Source: the human T2T-CHM13v2.0 reference genome, Homo sapiens
NCBI RefSeq assembly: GCF_009914755.1
Contig: NC_060947.1
DNA length: 64,000 bases
Direction: 5' to 3' (one strand)
Shown: positions 18,530 through 55,785 of the stretch, piece by piece
How the letters are laid out: each line of letters begins with the position of its first letter
Position numbering within the stretch: the stretch's first letter is position 1
The notes under the pieces: model-generated
The model's input: the letters and a program-made list of their open reading frames with translations, nothing else
Databases searched by the model: none
Told to the model about the DNA's origin: nothing
Program-made: the position numbers and the translations under genes

Positions 18530-18605
18530 TCCTAACATTTCTGAGCCTCACATTTATCATCTGTCAAATGAGAATTATTGTAGATCAAATGAGAATTGTT
18601 ACATA
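18530..18605 (+). mobile_element. MIR core fragment, probable donor of the inverted copy at 21431-21481
   Basis: CTGAGCCTCACATTTATCATCTGTCAAATGAG resembles the MIR core. Confidence 0.65.
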
Positions 18606-20259: not shown

Positions 20260-22651
<2,392 letters not shown>

Positions 22652-44220: not shown

Positions 44221-44700
44221 TGGCTAGAGGAAAATGAGGCCTAAGGGTTTGAATCATGGGGGAGACTGCTTATAATAGGCCACATCTATCTTTTAGTTCA
44301 TAAAAGGCCACAGGTCAGGAAGAAGCATGTCCAACTAGAGAGGATGGAGGGTAATATGATGTTTCTGGGTGATAGGACTTAAATCTGATTTCATGTCTGC
44401 AATATGGATAATTAGACATTTTAGAAATTAGATTAGAAATGAGACACTTAAAACGATAAGTATTCTGTTTGTTTGGGCCTTGTGGGTACAGAATTCATAG
44501 GAGTTATAGTGAATAAAATAAAGGTAAAATTTCCCAAGTTCCTCCTCCTCCTCATTTTTTCTCCCCAAGTATTATCTTCTGTTAGCAGATTGATTTTTTA
44601 TACTTTATTTTTTAAATTTTTACAAAGTTTGTATTTTTCAAACCATTTTATGTGTACAAACTAAAAATTTGTACATAATATTTAAAAAATAAAATATCAT

Positions 44701-45242
44701 TGTCAGGGCTAAGGGGAAAGTTCCCATTTGCCAGCAGAAGCTTTGCTGAAAAATCAACTCACAAAAATCAGAATAGGAGAAAAGGCATACAAATTTATTT
44801 AACGTGTATACATGGGAGCCCATAGGTACAGGGAGAATTTTCTATTTTTATGCTTAGGTTCAGTAAAATATGGACAGTTGTACAGAAATAGGATTGGACA
44901 AAAAGGGCTAATCTAATACTATAGGGGCCCTCTCTGAAACGGGGGTCTTAGGACCTACAGTCAAACAAGGTAGGTCAGATAATTTCTTCATGGCCAGTTT
45001 CTACACAGGAACGTTGGGGGAGGAAGTTAGAGTAATATATTTAGGTGTTATGGCTGGCTTTTGGAAAAGAGGTTCTGGTTTCTATGACCCGCCTTGGGGA
45101 AGATGGATTCTAGTTTCTACGACACCTTGGAGAGAATGGGAGTGAGAGACAGGAGGGCAGGAGAAGGTCAAAGAGAAACTTTTGCTTTTCAGAGTGCTTT
45201 TGAGGCTTTCATTTTTGGGGTATTGTTTTCTGAGTCCCGACA
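44701..45242 (-). mobile_element. MER34/MER39-group ERV1 solo LTR
   Basis: Reverse strand starts TGTCGGGACTCAGAAAACAATACCCCAAAA...GACCTTCTCCTGCCCTCCTGTCTCTC; AATAAA seen as TTTATT. Confidence 0.8.
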
Positions 45243-46109
45243 TCATCAAACTGTACTGTAACTGTTACAACTATTTCATTTAATAAAATATAGATGTGTC
45301 CACATCAGTACATGCTGGCAAACTTGTTCTTTGTAATGGCTATATAACATTTCATGATACGAACATACTAAAATTTATTTACCAGTTCCTGTATTGATAG
45401 GTATATGGGGTGTTTCTATGTTTTATTATAGCAAATAATGCTGTAATGTTTATTTGTTAGGAATTATGTCTATTCAAATGACTTACAAAATATAGTCTGC
45501 TTTAAAATAGAAGCTTCTTTGAGAATAAATTATGTTTTCTTTTTTGCCACTAAGTCCAATTTCTGGTGCTTATTTAAAAATCTTAGTATTATAAAATGCT
45601 TTGAAACAAGGAATAAAAACACTATACAGTAATTGTATGATGAATTTAATGTTTACATAATAAAGATAGGCATTTATTTTAATTACCCAAATTTTGGCAG
45701 ATGTCCCTTCTGCTTTCCTCTATCAATTAGTTACATTACTGATGATGGTGTTTTTGAACAGAGCCTAATTTCGTCTCATCAGCATCACTGAAAAGAATTG
45801 AAATCACAATTACTATTTTTAGTTATTTCTCTTGTGTCATTTCTTACTTTTAGCATAAATGGAAGCTATTTAAATATTTAGATCATGAATTTGGATTTGT
45901 GTCTGCTGTTCTGTGTGTTATAAATTTGGAATTATGTTATATATTAATGATATATGTTAAGAAATGGTGAAAAACAAAAAATTGCCCCCCTTTCACCAAG
46001 TCTTGTTGGGGCCTGAGATATTCTAAGAGAATGTATTTTCAGATACAATAAATTGAAGTATACTTTCTGAAAATATTTTAACCATTTTAATGGAAGTGAT
46101 CCTAAATCA

Positions 46110-46310
46110 GTATTAGTCACCTCTTAGAGTGTTTGTTTTCTATTCCTAGTAACCACAAACAGTGGCTTAAAACAGCACATTTATTCTCTGAATTTCCATG
46201 GGTCAGGAAGTTGAGCACAGGTTAAGTGGGTCCTCTGCTCAGGATCTCATCAGGTTGCCACCAAGAGGGTGACGAGCCTGGGGATCACCTTAGAATTCTG
46301 TCTTTCCGTG
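46110..46310 (-). mobile_element. MLT1 LTR fragment
   Basis: AGTGGCTTAAAACAGCACATTTATT...GGGTCCTCTGCTCAGGATCTCA. Confidence 0.65.
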
Positions 46311-46689
46311 ATTATCTTCTCAGACTGTATTATACTTCATTTAATAAATTTTGAAAATGCAGAGCAACATTATGAATATCCATTCCCATACTTTGCTATT
46401 ATATAGAACACAATTCTCTATCAGCTCTTGAGTTACAGAAACAATCACTTCTGCCTTTGCCTTTTAATCTTTGCTTGAGGGTTGGTTTCCAGAGGCCTGA
46501 GTTTACTAGACAGTTTAGATAAAAAATTAATGGGAAGTGCTTATATAAGCATCTGCATGTTATGCACACTAATTTACTTGTTTCAGAGGGGAAGGGAGAT
46601 GAGGGAAATGTGGCAATTTGGGGGTTGTAGTAAATAATTTTTAGGGGAAAATTAATGGTCTTGCAGAACATGTAGTGGCCCGGGACAAA

Positions 46690-47041
46690 GTCTCTTAGGC
46701 CCACAGACCAGACAATGATTTGTGACTAAAGTCTGTCCATGTGTCTTGACAAACTTCAGTCTCTTTTCCCACTTAACCTGTGCTCAGTATCTTTTCCTGA
46801 AATATGAGTTAAGTTAACAAAAACTCCAGGAAGGAACCAGAGGCAATTGTTTTCTTCTTTGGCAAGTCCGGACATGAGGCAGATAGGGGAAGTTTAGAGA
46901 ACACCTTCAGCCTTTATTTTGGGAGACACAAAAGATTGAGAGATGGGGGAATGAGGGGATGTTAGAGAGACTTTGAATCGACTTCTTCAGGCCAGCATGT
47001 CAAAGTGCCATATTTTGGATATCGGTTTCTGGGCCCCAACA
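46690..47041 (-). mobile_element. MER39-like ERV1 LTR, partial
   Basis: Reverse strand starts TGTTGGGGCCCAGAAACCGATATCCAAAATATGGCACTTTGACATGCTG. Confidence 0.75.
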
Positions 47042-47298
47042 AGAGTCAATCATAAAATAAAATGGCTTTAAGCTCATTGCAAGGTAAGTAGGAAAATAAA
47101 TGCCAATAAATAAGAATTTTATACCATGATGTGGTGTACAAGTATACACACAAGTGTGCAAGTGTTTCTTATTTACGATGAAACAAAAGGTGATGAAACT
47201 AAAATATCTAATTAAATATAATTATTAAAATTATTATATGTGATTATATTTAAAAATGATTAAAAGATGCATTTAGCGACTATTTCATTTCACTAAGT

Positions 47299-47524
47299 GA
47301 GTGATTTTTCATCCAGGGGTCATTTTGCAACCCCCCTCCCTGCCCAGAGATATTTGGCAATGTCTGGAGACATTTTTCCTTGTCATAACTGGGGGACGGG
47401 TTGCTTCTGGCAGCTAATGAGTAGAGGCCAGGGATGCTGCTAAATATCCTGCAATCCACGCAACAGCCCCCGTATCAAAGAATTATCTAGGCCAATAGTC
47501 AATAGTGTTGGGGTTTAGAAACTG
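47299..47524. mobile_element. MER20, full length
   Basis: TTTGGCAATGTCTGGAGACATTTTT...GTAGAGGCCAGGGATGCTGCTAAA; 8-bp TSD CACTAAGT/TACTAAGT. Confidence 0.9.
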
Positions 47525-48028
47525 TACTAAGTGAAAAAAGCAGTCTCTAAACCTATTTTATTCTATGTCATTTTTTTACACTTTTAATAAGCTATCTTTA
47601 TTGTTCATTTTAAACAATTGTATTATTCAAATATTTAACATTTATTGAGACATTTCACCTGACTTAGTGTACAGACACCTTTTATAAATGCCCCACATGT
47701 GCTTAAGAAGAACGTACATTCTCTGTTCAGGATTCTAAATATACTAAATAAAAAATGTATCTAATGTTAGATCTAAATCCTTACTAACTTGTGTACGCTT
47801 GATCTAATAATGGTGTGTTGAAATCTCTCACTTTTATTGTTTTGTTCAATTTTTATTTGCAGTTGTATCATTAAAAAGTTTGGAACTATTTTGTTAGGTA
47901 CATACAAATTCATGATTGTCCTATCTTGTTAAAGTGTTGTTCCCTTCATCATAATTTGGTGTGCTTTTTTATCCGTACTCATAATATTTCATCTAATGTC
48001 TTTTTGTCTGATAGTACTAGTGTCACAA

Positions 48029-49025
48029 TTTTTTTTCAACTTTTATTTTAGATTCAGGTGGTACATGTGTAGGTTTGTTAACTGGTTATATTGCGTGATG
48101 ATGAGGTTTGGGGTACGAATGATCCTGTCACCCAGGTACTGAGCATAGTACCCAACAGTTTTTCAATCCTTGTCCCCCTTCCTCCTGCCCCCCATAGTAG
48201 TCCCCAGTGTCGATTGTTGCCACATTTATGTCCATGCATACCCAATGTTTAACTCCCACTTAGAATATGCAACTTTTGGTTTTCTGTTCCTGCATTAAAT
48301 CATGGAGGATAACGGCCTCCAGCTGCATCCATGTTGCTGCAAAGAACATGATTTTGTTCTTTTTTATAGTGGGGTGGTATTGCATAGTGTATATGTACCA
48401 TATTTTTAAAAATCCAATCCACCATTGATGGGCACTTAAGTTGATTCCATGTCTGCTATTGTGAATAGCGTAGCAATAAACATGTGAGTGTATGTGTGTT
48501 TTTGGTAGAATAACACTACTGGGTATCTATCCTCTGGCTGGCTTTTGGAAAAGGGGTTCTGGTTTCTATGACCTGCCTTGTGGAAGATGGATTCTAGTTT
48601 CTATGACACCTTGGAGAGAATGGGAGTGAGAGACAGTACCATTTCTTAACATATATCATTAATATGTATTCTTTGGGTAGATACCCAGTAGTGGGATTGC
48701 TGGGTCAAATGGTAGTTCTGTTTTAAGTTCTTTAAGGAATCTCCTGACTGCTTTCCACAGTGGCTGAACTAATTTATATTCTCACCAACAGTGTATAAAC
48801 GTTCCCTTTTCTCCACAGCCTCACTAGGAACTGGTTTTTTTTTTTTTTTTTGATATTTTAATAATAGCTATTCAGACTGGCAGGAGATGGTATCTCATTG
48901 TGGTTTTTATTTGCATTTCTGTGATGATTAATATTGTTGAGCATTTTTTCATATGTTGCTGGCTGTTTATGTGTCTTTTTTTTTTTTGAGGTGTGTGTTC
49001 ACATCTTTTGCCCGTTTTTTAATGG
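48029..49025 (-). mobile_element. L1PA15/16-like 3' end carrying a complex insertion at 48514-48665
   Basis: Collinear with the L1 at 36050-36890 except for the insert. Confidence 0.9.
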
Positions 49026-49536
49026 ACAAAGCTATTTTAAATAATGATTCCAATACTGTGAAAGAAGCCCCAACTATATATTTTCCTAGCTATTTATATA
49101 ATGTATCTATAAAGAATCAGACTTCCCCCCACTATCTATAAGATAAGAACATTATTTTATGTAAAAGTTAGTGCTGAATGGATCATTGGCCTGGAATGAA
49201 AGAGTCAATCTATGAAGTCGCCTCACTTCTTACTCACTTGTCTTTACCTGTTGTGTGTATCTGGTTGTCCTGTCTCCCCGTTCATCTAACATCTCTTTTA
49301 AAATTGTATGCCTTGTAGTCACTACTCTCCTACATAGTTATTATATGTATTCTTTGTGTTTACATGTAATGAGTCAAGATTATATATGTAATTTAATGTG
49401 CTGTGTATCTGAGTCTGCTGCTGCACATTTCTCTCTGATCCCATGCTATTTAGGAATAGTAACAATTTATTTTCCTGCATAATATCTACTATGTGCTTCA
49501 CTAAATCTTCCTGTGTGGTAGATAAGATTAGGCTAC

Positions 49537-54149: not shown

Positions 54150-55430
54150 AGCTCTTCTGGCTTTGTGTGTTGCTGCAGCAGTCTGCCTACTGTGGCTGTT
54201 CTTGTTTCTGCTTTTGGTTTGGTGGTTCAAGGCTGCCTTTGATGATTATTTCGAACAAAGTATTCCCTAAATACTAATATTCCAGAAGTAGATGGGGACA
54301 TAGACACACCTTATGATTTGTCCTTGGTTTTTATACCTTGAAGGAAGGCTCTCTTTTGATCGAAGTAATTTTAATGTTTATATGTTTAGAAATCCAAATT
54401 TGTACTTTGGAATTATGTGAGAAATTACTCATTTTTTCAGTCTATATAAGTCTCATTTATGTTGTAGTTCTAGTCTTACTCATTATTAAGTTTCACAAAT
54501 CAGCCACTATTGTTTAAACATTTAAATCTAACTCTATTCCTCCTCTGGGAACTATATCATGTCACAGCTATTGGGTTAAATATGAGAAATTTCATGTGTT
54601 TCAGAAAATGAAATCATTTGGTTGGGGTCCAAGATTAACTTGTTAGATAAAAATATCCTGCAGTGAATTAAGTTTCAGCAAGTTTCCAATTTTGTTTCCT
54701 TCTCCTGCTATTTTTATTAACTCAAATAAATTAAATTTTCTTCCAAAAAATAATACCCACCCGAGATCCTTCTTTTAGGATGTCTATTCAAGTCATCTTC
54801 TGTTCCCAAAATATACACTATGTAGTTTTAGGATCTTTATCCATGTGTAGGAGCAAAATGATGTGGCACTAATATCAGATTTGAAGGGGTGTTACCTAGG
54901 AAACAAATCAAATTCTAAGACTGTCTTTTCTGTAATCTTTCATGATTGGAGATAAACCCTTGAAATTTAACTTCCCAAGAATATGCCTTTTTGTGAGCAT
55001 GATGCGCACAGGAACAATGAAAGGGATCAATTAAACAAATATATTTGTTGGGATGTTCATTATTTCTTTTCTGCTTTTTGCCCTTTAAACAACTTGAGTT
55101 CTGTTTGCACTTTAACAAATATAACTACTTTGGGCATGTTCATGGGGGTAGGAAGAATTTAATTATGGAATATTTAGGTTTTTAAAAGTTTTGGATATTT
55201 GGAAGTCAATAAAATGTAGGGAATTCATATATTGTAGACCACCTAAGTTCCCCAAATAATGTTTTATTATAGGTTTTCTAAAAAAAAATCTGGATGGTTT
55301 TTTTTTATAGGAACACTATATTTTAGGCATCATTTGGTGGGAAACCCTATTGTAAAACTCAAACTATATTTTCTCTAGTTTATATTCCAAATACCTAAAA
55401 AAAAAAACAGAGCAGCAGTCCCCAAGTTTT

Positions 55431-55737
<307 letters not shown>

Positions 55738-55785
55738 AGCAGTCCCCAAGTTTTAAGGAAGCACTGAACTCCATGACAGGTTTAG

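What the first reader, a model, noticed from the sequence alone, without database searches (positions are those of the whole stretch)
48514..48665. Three-part templated insertion inside an L1, stitched from three local donors
Seen: the L1PA at 48.0-49.0 kb matches its relative at 36.5 kb but breaks between ...TTTGGTAGAATAA and ...TTTGGGTAGATACCCAG. The insert has three parts. (A) 48514-48529 CACTACTGGGTATCTA is the exact reverse complement of the downstream flank at 48678-48693. (B) 48535-48636 is a direct 102-bp copy of the LTR interior at 45051-45152, with 98/102 identity and two of the four differences being CpG transitions. (C) 48638-48665 is an exact 28-bp reverse complement of 45941-45968. 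The insert has no poly-A tail and no TSD. Established: local multi-template insertions with mixed orientation are the signature of polymerase theta end joining or MMBIR/FoSTeS template switching. Inference: this is a germline repair event in which one break end copied a fold-back and two sites 2.7-3.5 kb away. Annotation software would probably report it only as an LTR fragment within an L1.
Basis: partly seen in the sequence, partly recalled or inferred. Interest (0 to 1): 0.8.

Follow-up and report, generated by a model that had tools for sequence, protein, structure and literature searches.

The report
Patchwork repair scar inside an L1
An old L1 repeat in an intron of FRMPD4 carries a 152-base patch stitched from three nearby pieces of the same chromosome, a clean but ordinary example of the scars left when a broken chromosome is mended by copying local DNA.

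Summary
A 152-bp insert (48514-48665) interrupts an old L1. It consists of:
- a 16-nt exact inverted copy of the right flank;
- a 5-nt filler;
- a 102-bp direct copy of 45051-45152 (98/102);
- a 1-nt filler;
- a 28-nt exact inverted copy of 45941-45968.

The local donor matches the 102-mer at 96%; the next best copy reaches 86% (40 of 562 candidates scored). The 28-mer occurs only twice in 3.1 Gb at up to 3 mismatches: in the insert and at the local donor.

All 20 L1 relatives examined are contiguous across the site. The window lacks only 3 nt there, with no target-site duplication and no poly-A.

The four differences in the 102-bp piece fall on both lineages. The event is therefore old and inherited, not an assembly artefact.

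Best reading: one germline break repaired by serial DNA-templated copying, of the polymerase-theta end-joining or MMBIR kind. The enzyme is not resolved. Junction microhomology is only 0-1 nt. The 102-bp piece is longer, and its donor farther away, than is typical.

This class is already described, including germline cases with up to five templates (PMC8421209). It is a new member of a known kind, of modest interest.

The parts
48360..48513 (+). L1 left flank, ending ...GGTAGAATAA
   Evidence: 81-85% identical over its full length to L1 copies genome-wide. Aligned to 20 relatives.
48514..48529 (.). Segment A: 16-nt exact inverted copy of 48678-48693 (19 nt with 1 mismatch if extended to 48532)
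   Evidence: (pair I2).
48530..48534 (.). Filler TCCTC. No template assigned; the first 3 nt may continue A's template with one mismatch.
   Evidence: Junction-spanning 9-mers gave 44 scattered hits in the window, against a rough expectation of about 19 for uniform base composition, with no local cluster.
48535..48636 (+). Segment B: 102-bp direct copy of 45051-45152 (98/102)
   Evidence: (family D1).
48637..48637 (.). Single filler base T
48638..48665 (.). Segment C: 28-nt exact inverted copy of 45941-45968
   Evidence: (pair I1).
48666..48850 (+). L1 right flank, starting GTATTCTTTGGG
   Evidence: It continues the L1 3 nt after the left flank ends.
48678..48693 (+). Template of segment A, 12 nt inside the right flank
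48675..48686 (.). Quasi-palindrome GGGTAGATACCC, one mismatch from a perfect 12-nt palindrome carried by many L1 copies. A's template starts inside it.
45051..45152 (+). Donor of segment B, still in place
44700..45240 (+). Dispersed repeat that holds the B donor (approximate ends; family not named by any tool)
   Evidence: 6 relatives align over about 44700-45246; 1148 first-look candidates, 40 scored, the best at 85%.
45941..45968 (+). Donor of segment C, still in place, in single-copy sequence outside the repeat

Best explanation
A single old germline break, or collapsed replication fork, occurred in the L1 between 48513 and 48666. It was sealed after a free 3' DNA end copied three short stretches of nearby DNA in turn and was then joined to the other end. 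This left a 152-bp patchwork in place of 3 lost bases.

Shown:
- The three pieces are copies of local sequence.
- The donors are intact.
- The pieces have mixed orientation.
- There is no target-site duplication and no poly-A tail.
- The event is old.

Inferred, the order of copying. In the simplest version the 3' end of the right-hand break end (bottom strand) took these steps:
1. It primed at 45941 and copied 28 nt rightwards.
2. It moved 0.8 kb to 45152 and copied 102 nt leftwards on the other strand.
3. It snapped back on its own strand, inside a quasi-palindrome 12 nt from the break, and copied 16-19 nt.
4. It was ligated to the left end.

The mirror version, starting from the left end or from a stalled leading strand, fits equally well.

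Also inferred, the enzymes. The process works like polymerase-theta-mediated end joining with iterative aborted synthesis, or like MMBIR/FoSTeS template switching.
For: - Local origin of B: 96% to 45051-45152, against at most 86% for the other 38 scored places of 562 candidates (the same with the whole insert as query).
- The whole donor element has no relative above 85%.
- Insert and donor share 6 derived substitutions and shared gaps against 26 other family copies.
- Local origin of C: the 28-mer occurs only in the insert and at 45941-45968 in 3.1 Gb at up to 3 mismatches. The donor context is single copy.
- A is one of only two exact inverted repeats of 16 nt or more with arms up to 200 nt apart in the window, and 0 of 30 shuffles gave any.
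- The L1 is otherwise intact across the site: 20 of 20 relatives are contiguous, and the window lacks 3 nt.
- Age: at 48554 the insert keeps the family state (G in 24 of 26 copies) while the donor has changed. At 48581 the insert has changed. At two CpG sites the donor keeps CG and the insert has TG.
- C (0/28 differences) and A (0/16) are compatible with the same age as B (my arithmetic).
- Mixed orientation (A inverted, B direct, C inverted) needs both DNA strands as templates.
- Passages of a review (PMC12426944) describe templated insertions as patchworks of several segments of different origin, interspersed with bases of unknown origin.
Against: - Junction microhomology is almost absent. 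No exact match extends past any segment end. Only the C/right-flank junction has 1 shared base (4 nt if one mismatch is allowed). Two junctions carry fillers of 5 nt and 1 nt.
- In PMC8421209, 138 of 155 and 135 of 148 resolvable junctions had at least 1 bp of microhomology (passage).
- B is 102 nt long and its donor lies 3.5 kb away. The review states that templated insertions are generally under 25 bp and use sequences flanking the break.
- A single event is the most economical reading, but it is not proven.
- No orthologous empty site and no population data could be examined.
Confidence: 0.7

Rival explanations
1. Patch capture by classical end joining. Two or three separate double-stranded fragments, either cDNA made from the nascent FRMPD4 intron transcript or DNA pieces released nearby, were ligated into the break in random orientation, as proposed for class 2 templated sequence insertions.
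For: - The junctions look like end joining: a 3-nt microdeletion, 0-1 nt of microhomology, and 1-nt and 5-nt fillers.
- There is no target-site duplication and no poly-A, and the donors are intact. These are the stated features of class 2 events (PMC5110952, passages).
- All donors lie in one intron of a gene on the + strand (hub annotation), so one transcript contains them all.
Against: - All three sources lie within 3.5 kb in cis. The experimental insertions described in PMC5110952 mapped to 18 of 24 human chromosomes with no preference for any region.
- A 16-nt fragment that happens to be the inverse of sequence 12 nt from the break is what fold-back synthesis gives; random capture would rarely give it.
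- One cDNA strand would give all pieces the same orientation, but they are mixed. Three independent fragments would therefore be needed.
Confidence: 0.15
2. Stepwise origin. Two or three separate small insertions hit the same spot at different times.
For: - Short local inverted copies are not rare here. Two other places in the same 64 kb show them (46.2/46.8 kb and 18.5/21.4 kb).
- Other L1 copies show fold-back changes at the same L1 position, so the site may be fragile.
Against: - It needs three hits within 152 bp, each drawing on donors within 3.5 kb.
- The divergence of the three pieces is compatible with one age.
Confidence: 0.1
3. Assembly or cell-line artefact. The junctions are mis-joins, or a somatic event in the sequenced cell line.
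For: No reads or other assemblies could be inspected.
Against: - B differs from its donor at 4 of 102 sites, with changes on both lineages, including one where the insert keeps the family state and the donor has changed.
- A recent copy or a mis-join would be identical to its source.
Confidence: 0.02

Closest known systems
[quoted passage not shown]
   Same: - The insert is made of copies of sequence near the break.
- It includes an inverted copy of the immediate flank (fold-back).
- It is a patchwork of several segments with a few unassignable bases between them.
- There is little loss of sequence at the break (described in PMC12426944, passages).
   Different: - One segment is 102 nt and comes from 3.5 kb away, and another comes from 2.7 kb away. 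The review gives a typical size under 25 bp, templated on flanking sequence.
- Priming microhomology is not visible (0-1 nt).
- Dependence on the enzyme cannot be tested for a historical event.
MMBIR / FoSTeS templated insertions (MMB-TI), including germline multi-template events
   Same: - There are serial switches between several templates on both strands, followed by a return to the original locus.
- Such events are seen as germline variants in normal genomes, with up to five templates and no larger rearrangement (PMC8421209, passages).
   Different: - That study searched only for inverted templates within 100 bp. Most of its junctions had at least 1 bp of microhomology.
- Here two donors are kilobases away, one is direct, and only 1 of 4 junctions has a shared base.
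Class 2 templated sequence insertion polymorphisms (TSIP)
   Same: There is no target-site duplication and no poly-A. There is a microdeletion, there are non-templated bases at the junctions, and the donor is left intact (PMC5110952, passages).
   Different: - Those are described as patches templated from distant genomic regions, thought to come from RNA (abstract and conclusion of PMC5110952).
- Here there are three pieces of mixed orientation, all from within 3.5 kb.
Short-range template switch mutations (four-point model)
   Same: Segment A, and the separate 28-nt insertion at 46.77 kb, are short inverted copies of nearby sequence. That is the kind of event these studies model (PMC5453318, PMC7954356, PMC9435742: search listing and abstract starts only).
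   Different: As far as the abstracts show, those events involve one inverted stretch at short range. They do not involve a chain that includes a 102-bp direct copy from 3.5 kb away.

Membership tests
Polymerase-theta-type templated insertion | The inserted bases map to sequence flanking or near the break | tested here: met
   146 of 152 inserted bases map within 3.5 kb. A maps 12 nt from the break.
Polymerase-theta-type templated insertion | A patchwork of several segments, with interspersed bases of unknown origin | tested here: met
   Three segments and two fillers. The feature is as stated in PMC12426944.
Polymerase-theta-type templated insertion | Small segment size (generally under 25 bp) | tested here: not met
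   A is 16-19 nt and C is 28 nt, close to typical, but B is 102 nt.
Polymerase-theta-type templated insertion | Each synthesis step is primed by minimal base pairing at the junction | tested here: inconclusive
   No exact match extends beyond any segment end. There is 1 shared base at the C/right-flank junction. 2-3 nt become visible only if one mismatch is allowed.
Polymerase-theta-type templated insertion | Dependence on POLQ | not testable with these tools
   This is a historical germline event.
MMBIR/FoSTeS templated insertion | Microhomology at the template-switch junctions | tested here: not met
   1 of 4 junctions has 1 shared base, and 2 of 4 carry fillers. Later mutation could have erased some, but the copies differ by only about 3%.
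MMBIR/FoSTeS templated insertion | Several templates, on both strands, in physical proximity | tested here: met
   There are three templates within 3.5 kb, two inverted and one direct.
MMBIR/FoSTeS templated insertion | An inverted template within about 100 bp of the insertion (the search signature of PMC8421209) | tested here: met
   Met for A only, whose template starts 12 nt from the right break end. B and C lie 2.7-3.5 kb away.
Class 2 templated sequence insertion (cDNA/DNA patch) | No target-site duplication, no poly-A, a microdeletion, and non-templated bases | tested here: met
Class 2 templated sequence insertion (cDNA/DNA patch) | The donor lies in a distant genomic region | tested here: not met
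   All donors lie within 3.5 kb on the same chromosome.
Class 2 templated sequence insertion (cDNA/DNA patch) | The template is RNA | not testable with these tools
   Mixed orientation of the pieces argues against a single cDNA strand, but it does not exclude separate fragments.
L1-mediated insertion (target-primed reverse transcription) | Target-site duplication and a poly-A tail | tested here: not met
   No duplication at the junctions; instead 3 nt are lost. There is no A-run at either end of the insert.

The most novel reading that the evidence does not exclude
The scar may be one of several left by a single error-prone, replication-type repair episode that ran across about 4 kb. A second local templated insertion lies between the donors and the acceptor. 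It sits at 46768-46795 and consists of a 17-19-nt inverted copy of 46212-46230, a 4-nt filler and a 7-nt duplication.

The trigger may be the 12-nt palindrome that this part of L1 carries next to the break. At least five other L1 copies show fold-back copies at the same position, so this would be a recurrent fragile site present in very many L1 copies.
Probability: 0.12. Interest if true: 0.5.

Novelty: new member of a known kind. Interest (0 to 1): 0.28.

Why it matters
It is a well-resolved natural example of a multi-template repair insertion:
- Both donors from kilobases away are still in place.
- Every junction can be read to the base.
- A built-in clock comes from the divergence between copy and donor.

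It shows that inherited scars of this class can include a 102-bp piece copied from 3.5 kb away, with almost no junction microhomology. That is outside the search space of tools that look for inverted templates within 100 bp.

It lies deep in an intron of FRMPD4, with no exon, no RNA family match and no sign of function. Its value is as a mutational record, not as a functional element.

Tried and rejected
- Another genomic copy as the source of B: rejected. The next best place is 86%, and the donor element has no relative above 85%. Only 40 of 562 and 40 of 1148 candidates were scored, so a closer copy is unlikely but not strictly excluded.
- B and C as neighbouring parts of one repeat family: rejected. 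The repeat ends near 45240, and C's donor lies in single-copy sequence.
- L1 twin priming or L1-mediated insertion: rejected. The L1 flanks are co-linear, with no duplication and no poly-A.
- A further local template for the fillers or junctions: not found. 38 junction-spanning 9-mers gave 44 scattered hits in the window, against a rough expectation of about 19 for uniform base composition. The longest is a 12-mer at 2802-2813, 46 kb away. I read all of these as chance.
- A 17-nt match (16 of 17) of 48662-48678 to 49343-49359: it lies outside the L1, in AT-rich sequence. I treat it as chance; it remains unexplained.
- A structured RNA made by the new inverted repeat: no Rfam family reached its threshold in 44500-49500.
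- Orthologous primate loci, other human assemblies and reads: no tool here holds them, so the event could not be dated by phylogeny or checked for polymorphism.
- Repeat family and L1 subfamily names: no repeat library was available.

Full report
**1. What is in the sequence**

The stretch 48514-48665 reads, in order:
- A, 48514-48529: 16 nt, the exact reverse complement of 48678-48693.
- TCCTC.
- B, 48535-48636: 102 nt, matching 45051-45152 at 98 of 102 in the same orientation and without gaps.
- T.
- C, 48638-48665: 28 nt, the exact reverse complement of 45941-45968.

No exact match can be extended by one base at either end. If one mismatch is allowed, A grows to 19 nt (48514-48532) and C to 31 nt (pairs I2 and I1). 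A self-comparison of 48400-48800 against the whole window finds only these matches and the L1 relative at 36.5 kb.

**2. More than chance**

- Exact inverted repeats of 16 nt or more with arms up to 200 nt apart occur at two places in the 64 kb. One is A; the other is an AT-rich low-complexity site. They occurred in 0 of 30 block-shuffled windows.
- The 28-mer of C occurs at 2 places in the 3.1-Gb genome at up to 3 mismatches: the insert and the local donor. The reversed control pattern gave none.

**3. The host element and the break**

The flanks belong to an old L1.
- The 154 nt left of the insert match L1 copies across the genome at 81-85% (40 of 5431 candidates scored).
- I aligned 19 of these loci and the window's own relative at 36.5 kb across the site. 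In all 20 the two flanks are adjacent.
- All 20 carry three bases that the window lacks, TTT in 14 of 20, between the end of the left flank (...GAATAA) and the start of the right flank (GTATTC...).
- The event therefore replaced 3 nt (2 if the last T of C is counted as L1) by 152 nt. There is no target-site duplication and no A-tail.
- This excludes L1-mediated insertion and twin priming.
- The label 'L1PA' could not be checked. The identities suggest an older copy than the young L1PA families, but that is my judgement; no tool said so.

**4.

- With B as query against the whole genome, the best place other than itself is 45051-45152 at 96%. The next 38 scored places reach at most 86-88% over shorter spans (40 of 562 first-look candidates scored; the same picture with the whole insert).
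- The donor element as a whole (316 nt) has no relative above 85% (40 of 1148 scored). No hidden near-identical copy could therefore have served instead.
- In an alignment with 26 other family copies, insert and donor share 6 substitutions where at least 60% of the other copies agree on another base. They also share gaps.
- The repeat holding B's donor spans about 44700-45240.
- C's donor lies 700 nt beyond it, in sequence that is single copy in the genome.
- B and C are therefore not two parts of one mobile element.

**5. Age, and why it is not an artefact**

The four B differences polarise as follows:

| Insert site | Insert | Donor | Other 26 copies | Reading |
|---|---|---|---|---|
| 48554 | G | A | G in 24 of 26 | the donor changed after the copy |
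| 48581 | T | G | G in 22 of 26 | the insert changed |
| 48574 | TG | CG | mix of TG, CA and CG | an old CpG that decayed in the insert |
| 48604 | TG | CG | mix of TG, CA and CG | an old CpG that decayed in the insert |

- Changes on both lineages cannot come from a mis-assembly or from a recent event in the cell line.
- Overall, 4 of 146 copied bases differ, or 2 of about 142 outside CpG. That is 1.4-2.7%.
- With primate neutral divergences as I recall them (about 1% human-chimpanzee, about 3% human-orangutan; no call supports these figures), the event falls very roughly 5-20 million years ago. The error on four differences is very wide.
- Three of the four changes lie on the insert lineage. 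Some could be copying errors of an error-prone polymerase, which would make the event younger.
- C (0/28) and A (0/16) fit the same age. At 2.7%, about 1.2 differences would be expected in those 44 nt.

**6. How it most likely formed (inference)**

The pieces have mixed orientation, so both DNA strands served as templates. One cDNA strand copied from one transcript would give a single orientation.

The simplest path is a 3' end that copies, lets go and re-primes three times before the two ends are joined. Read from the right-hand break end (bottom strand), the steps are:
1. 45941 to 45968.
2. A jump of 0.8 kb, then 45152 back to 45051 on the other strand.
3. A fold-back onto its own strand at 48678-48693.
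4. Ligation to the left end.

The mirror path, from the left end or from a stalled leading strand, is equally possible.

The fold-back template begins inside GGGTAGATACCC (48675-48686). This is one base away from a perfect 12-nt palindrome that many L1 copies carry at this position.

The literature fits this picture. Passages of a recent review describe templated insertions as patchworks of several segments with interspersed unassignable bases, and as a mark of polymerase theta (PMC12426944). [quoted passage not shown]

**7. What does not fit neatly**

- Microhomology, the defining feature of MMBIR/FoSTeS and the usual primer in theta-mediated joining, is nearly absent. There are 0 shared bases at the left-flank/A junction. 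There are fillers at A/B and B/C. There is 1 shared base at the C/right-flank junction, or 4 nt with one mismatch.
- In PMC8421209, 138 of 155 and 135 of 148 resolvable junctions had at least 1 bp.
- B is 102 nt and its donor lies 3.5 kb away. The review gives under 25 bp and flanking templates as typical.
- The junctions look as much like classical end joining as like microhomology-driven switching. This keeps the patch-capture rival alive: class 2 templated sequence insertions have no duplication and no poly-A, and show microdeletion and non-templated bases (PMC5110952).
- Against that rival stand the strict locality of all three sources, the fold-back nature of A, and the need for three separate fragments.
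- I therefore commit to DNA-templated serial copying at one break (0.7). I leave open the choice between theta-type end joining and MMBIR.

**8. Things found on the way**

(a) Another L1 copy on another chromosome (L024) has a 16-nt insertion at the same L1 position. It contains a 14-nt inverted copy of its own downstream flank.

(b) A pattern search found four further L1 copies in which the palindrome is extended to 24-40 nt by inverted copies, with rearranged sequence just upstream. The control pattern gave 0. No denominator was obtained, so a hotspot is suggested but not shown.

(c) There is a second local templated insertion at 46.77 kb.
- 46768-46786 is the exact reverse complement of 46212-46230 (19 nt, 537 nt apart).
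- 9 of 9 relatives of the repeat at 46710-46850 lack a 28-nt stretch there.
- The stretch reads as a 17-19-nt inverted copy with 2 nt of microhomology, a GTAT filler, and a 7-nt direct duplication (CTTTTCC).
- The source 19-mer lies within the stretch of another old repeat that its relatives also cover.
- The insertion lies between the donors and the acceptor of the main event.

(d) A window-wide scan for isolated exact local matches of 16 nt or more within 5 kb returned four inverted ones: A, C, the 46.2/46.8-kb pair, and a pair at 18.5/21.4 kb. The last extends to 54 of 59. With so few events, the placing of (c) inside the 3.6-kb span of the main event has roughly a 1 in 10 chance, so a link is possible but not supported.

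**9. Verdict**

The mechanism is inferred.
- The class is already described, so this is a new member of a known kind.
- There is no sign of function: deep intron, no exon, no Rfam match.
- Interest is modest. The main value is as a clean, datable example that extends the size and distance range of such scars, plus the side lead that this palindrome-bearing L1 position may be a recurrent site of fold-back copying.

Noticed in passing
46768-46795 (source 46212-46230): A second local templated insertion. A 19-nt exact inverted copy of sequence 537 nt upstream sits inside a 28-nt stretch that 9 of 9 relatives of the host repeat lack. It has a GTAT filler and a 7-nt direct duplication, CTTTTCC. It lies between the donors and the acceptor of the main event.
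   Followed up: partly
L024, about 1640-1720 on the reverse strand of the locus: An L1 copy on another chromosome carries a 16-nt insertion at the same L1 position as the window's break. It contains a 14-nt inverted copy of its own downstream flank.
   Followed up: partly
L051, L052, L053, L054 (around position 1500 of each): Four L1 copies in which the 12-nt palindrome of this L1 region is extended to 24-40 nt by inverted copies of the downstream arm, with rearranged sequence just upstream. The reversed control pattern gave 0 hits. This may be a recurrent fold-back site; no denominator was obtained.
   Followed up: partly
about 18531-18588 and 21428-21486: An isolated inverted match of 54 of 59 bases (36 exact), 2.9 kb apart. 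The flanks on either side are only weakly similar. It may be another old local inverted copy, or two copies of an old repeat with an unusually well-kept core.
   Followed up: no
48662-48678 and 49343-49359: A direct 17-nt match (16 of 17) that spans the C/right-flank junction and recurs 681 nt downstream, outside the L1. I treat it as chance in AT-rich sequence, but it is not explained.
   Followed up: partly
22218-22233 and 22554-22569; 55414-55430 and 55738-55754: Isolated direct repeats of 16 and 17 nt. Each sits at the two ends of a stretch the hub lists as masked repeat (22225-22557 and 55388-55741). I read them as probable target-site duplications of inserted elements.
   Followed up: no
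48836-48852: A run of about 17 T inside the right-hand L1 flank. It was not compared with the relatives.
   Followed up: no
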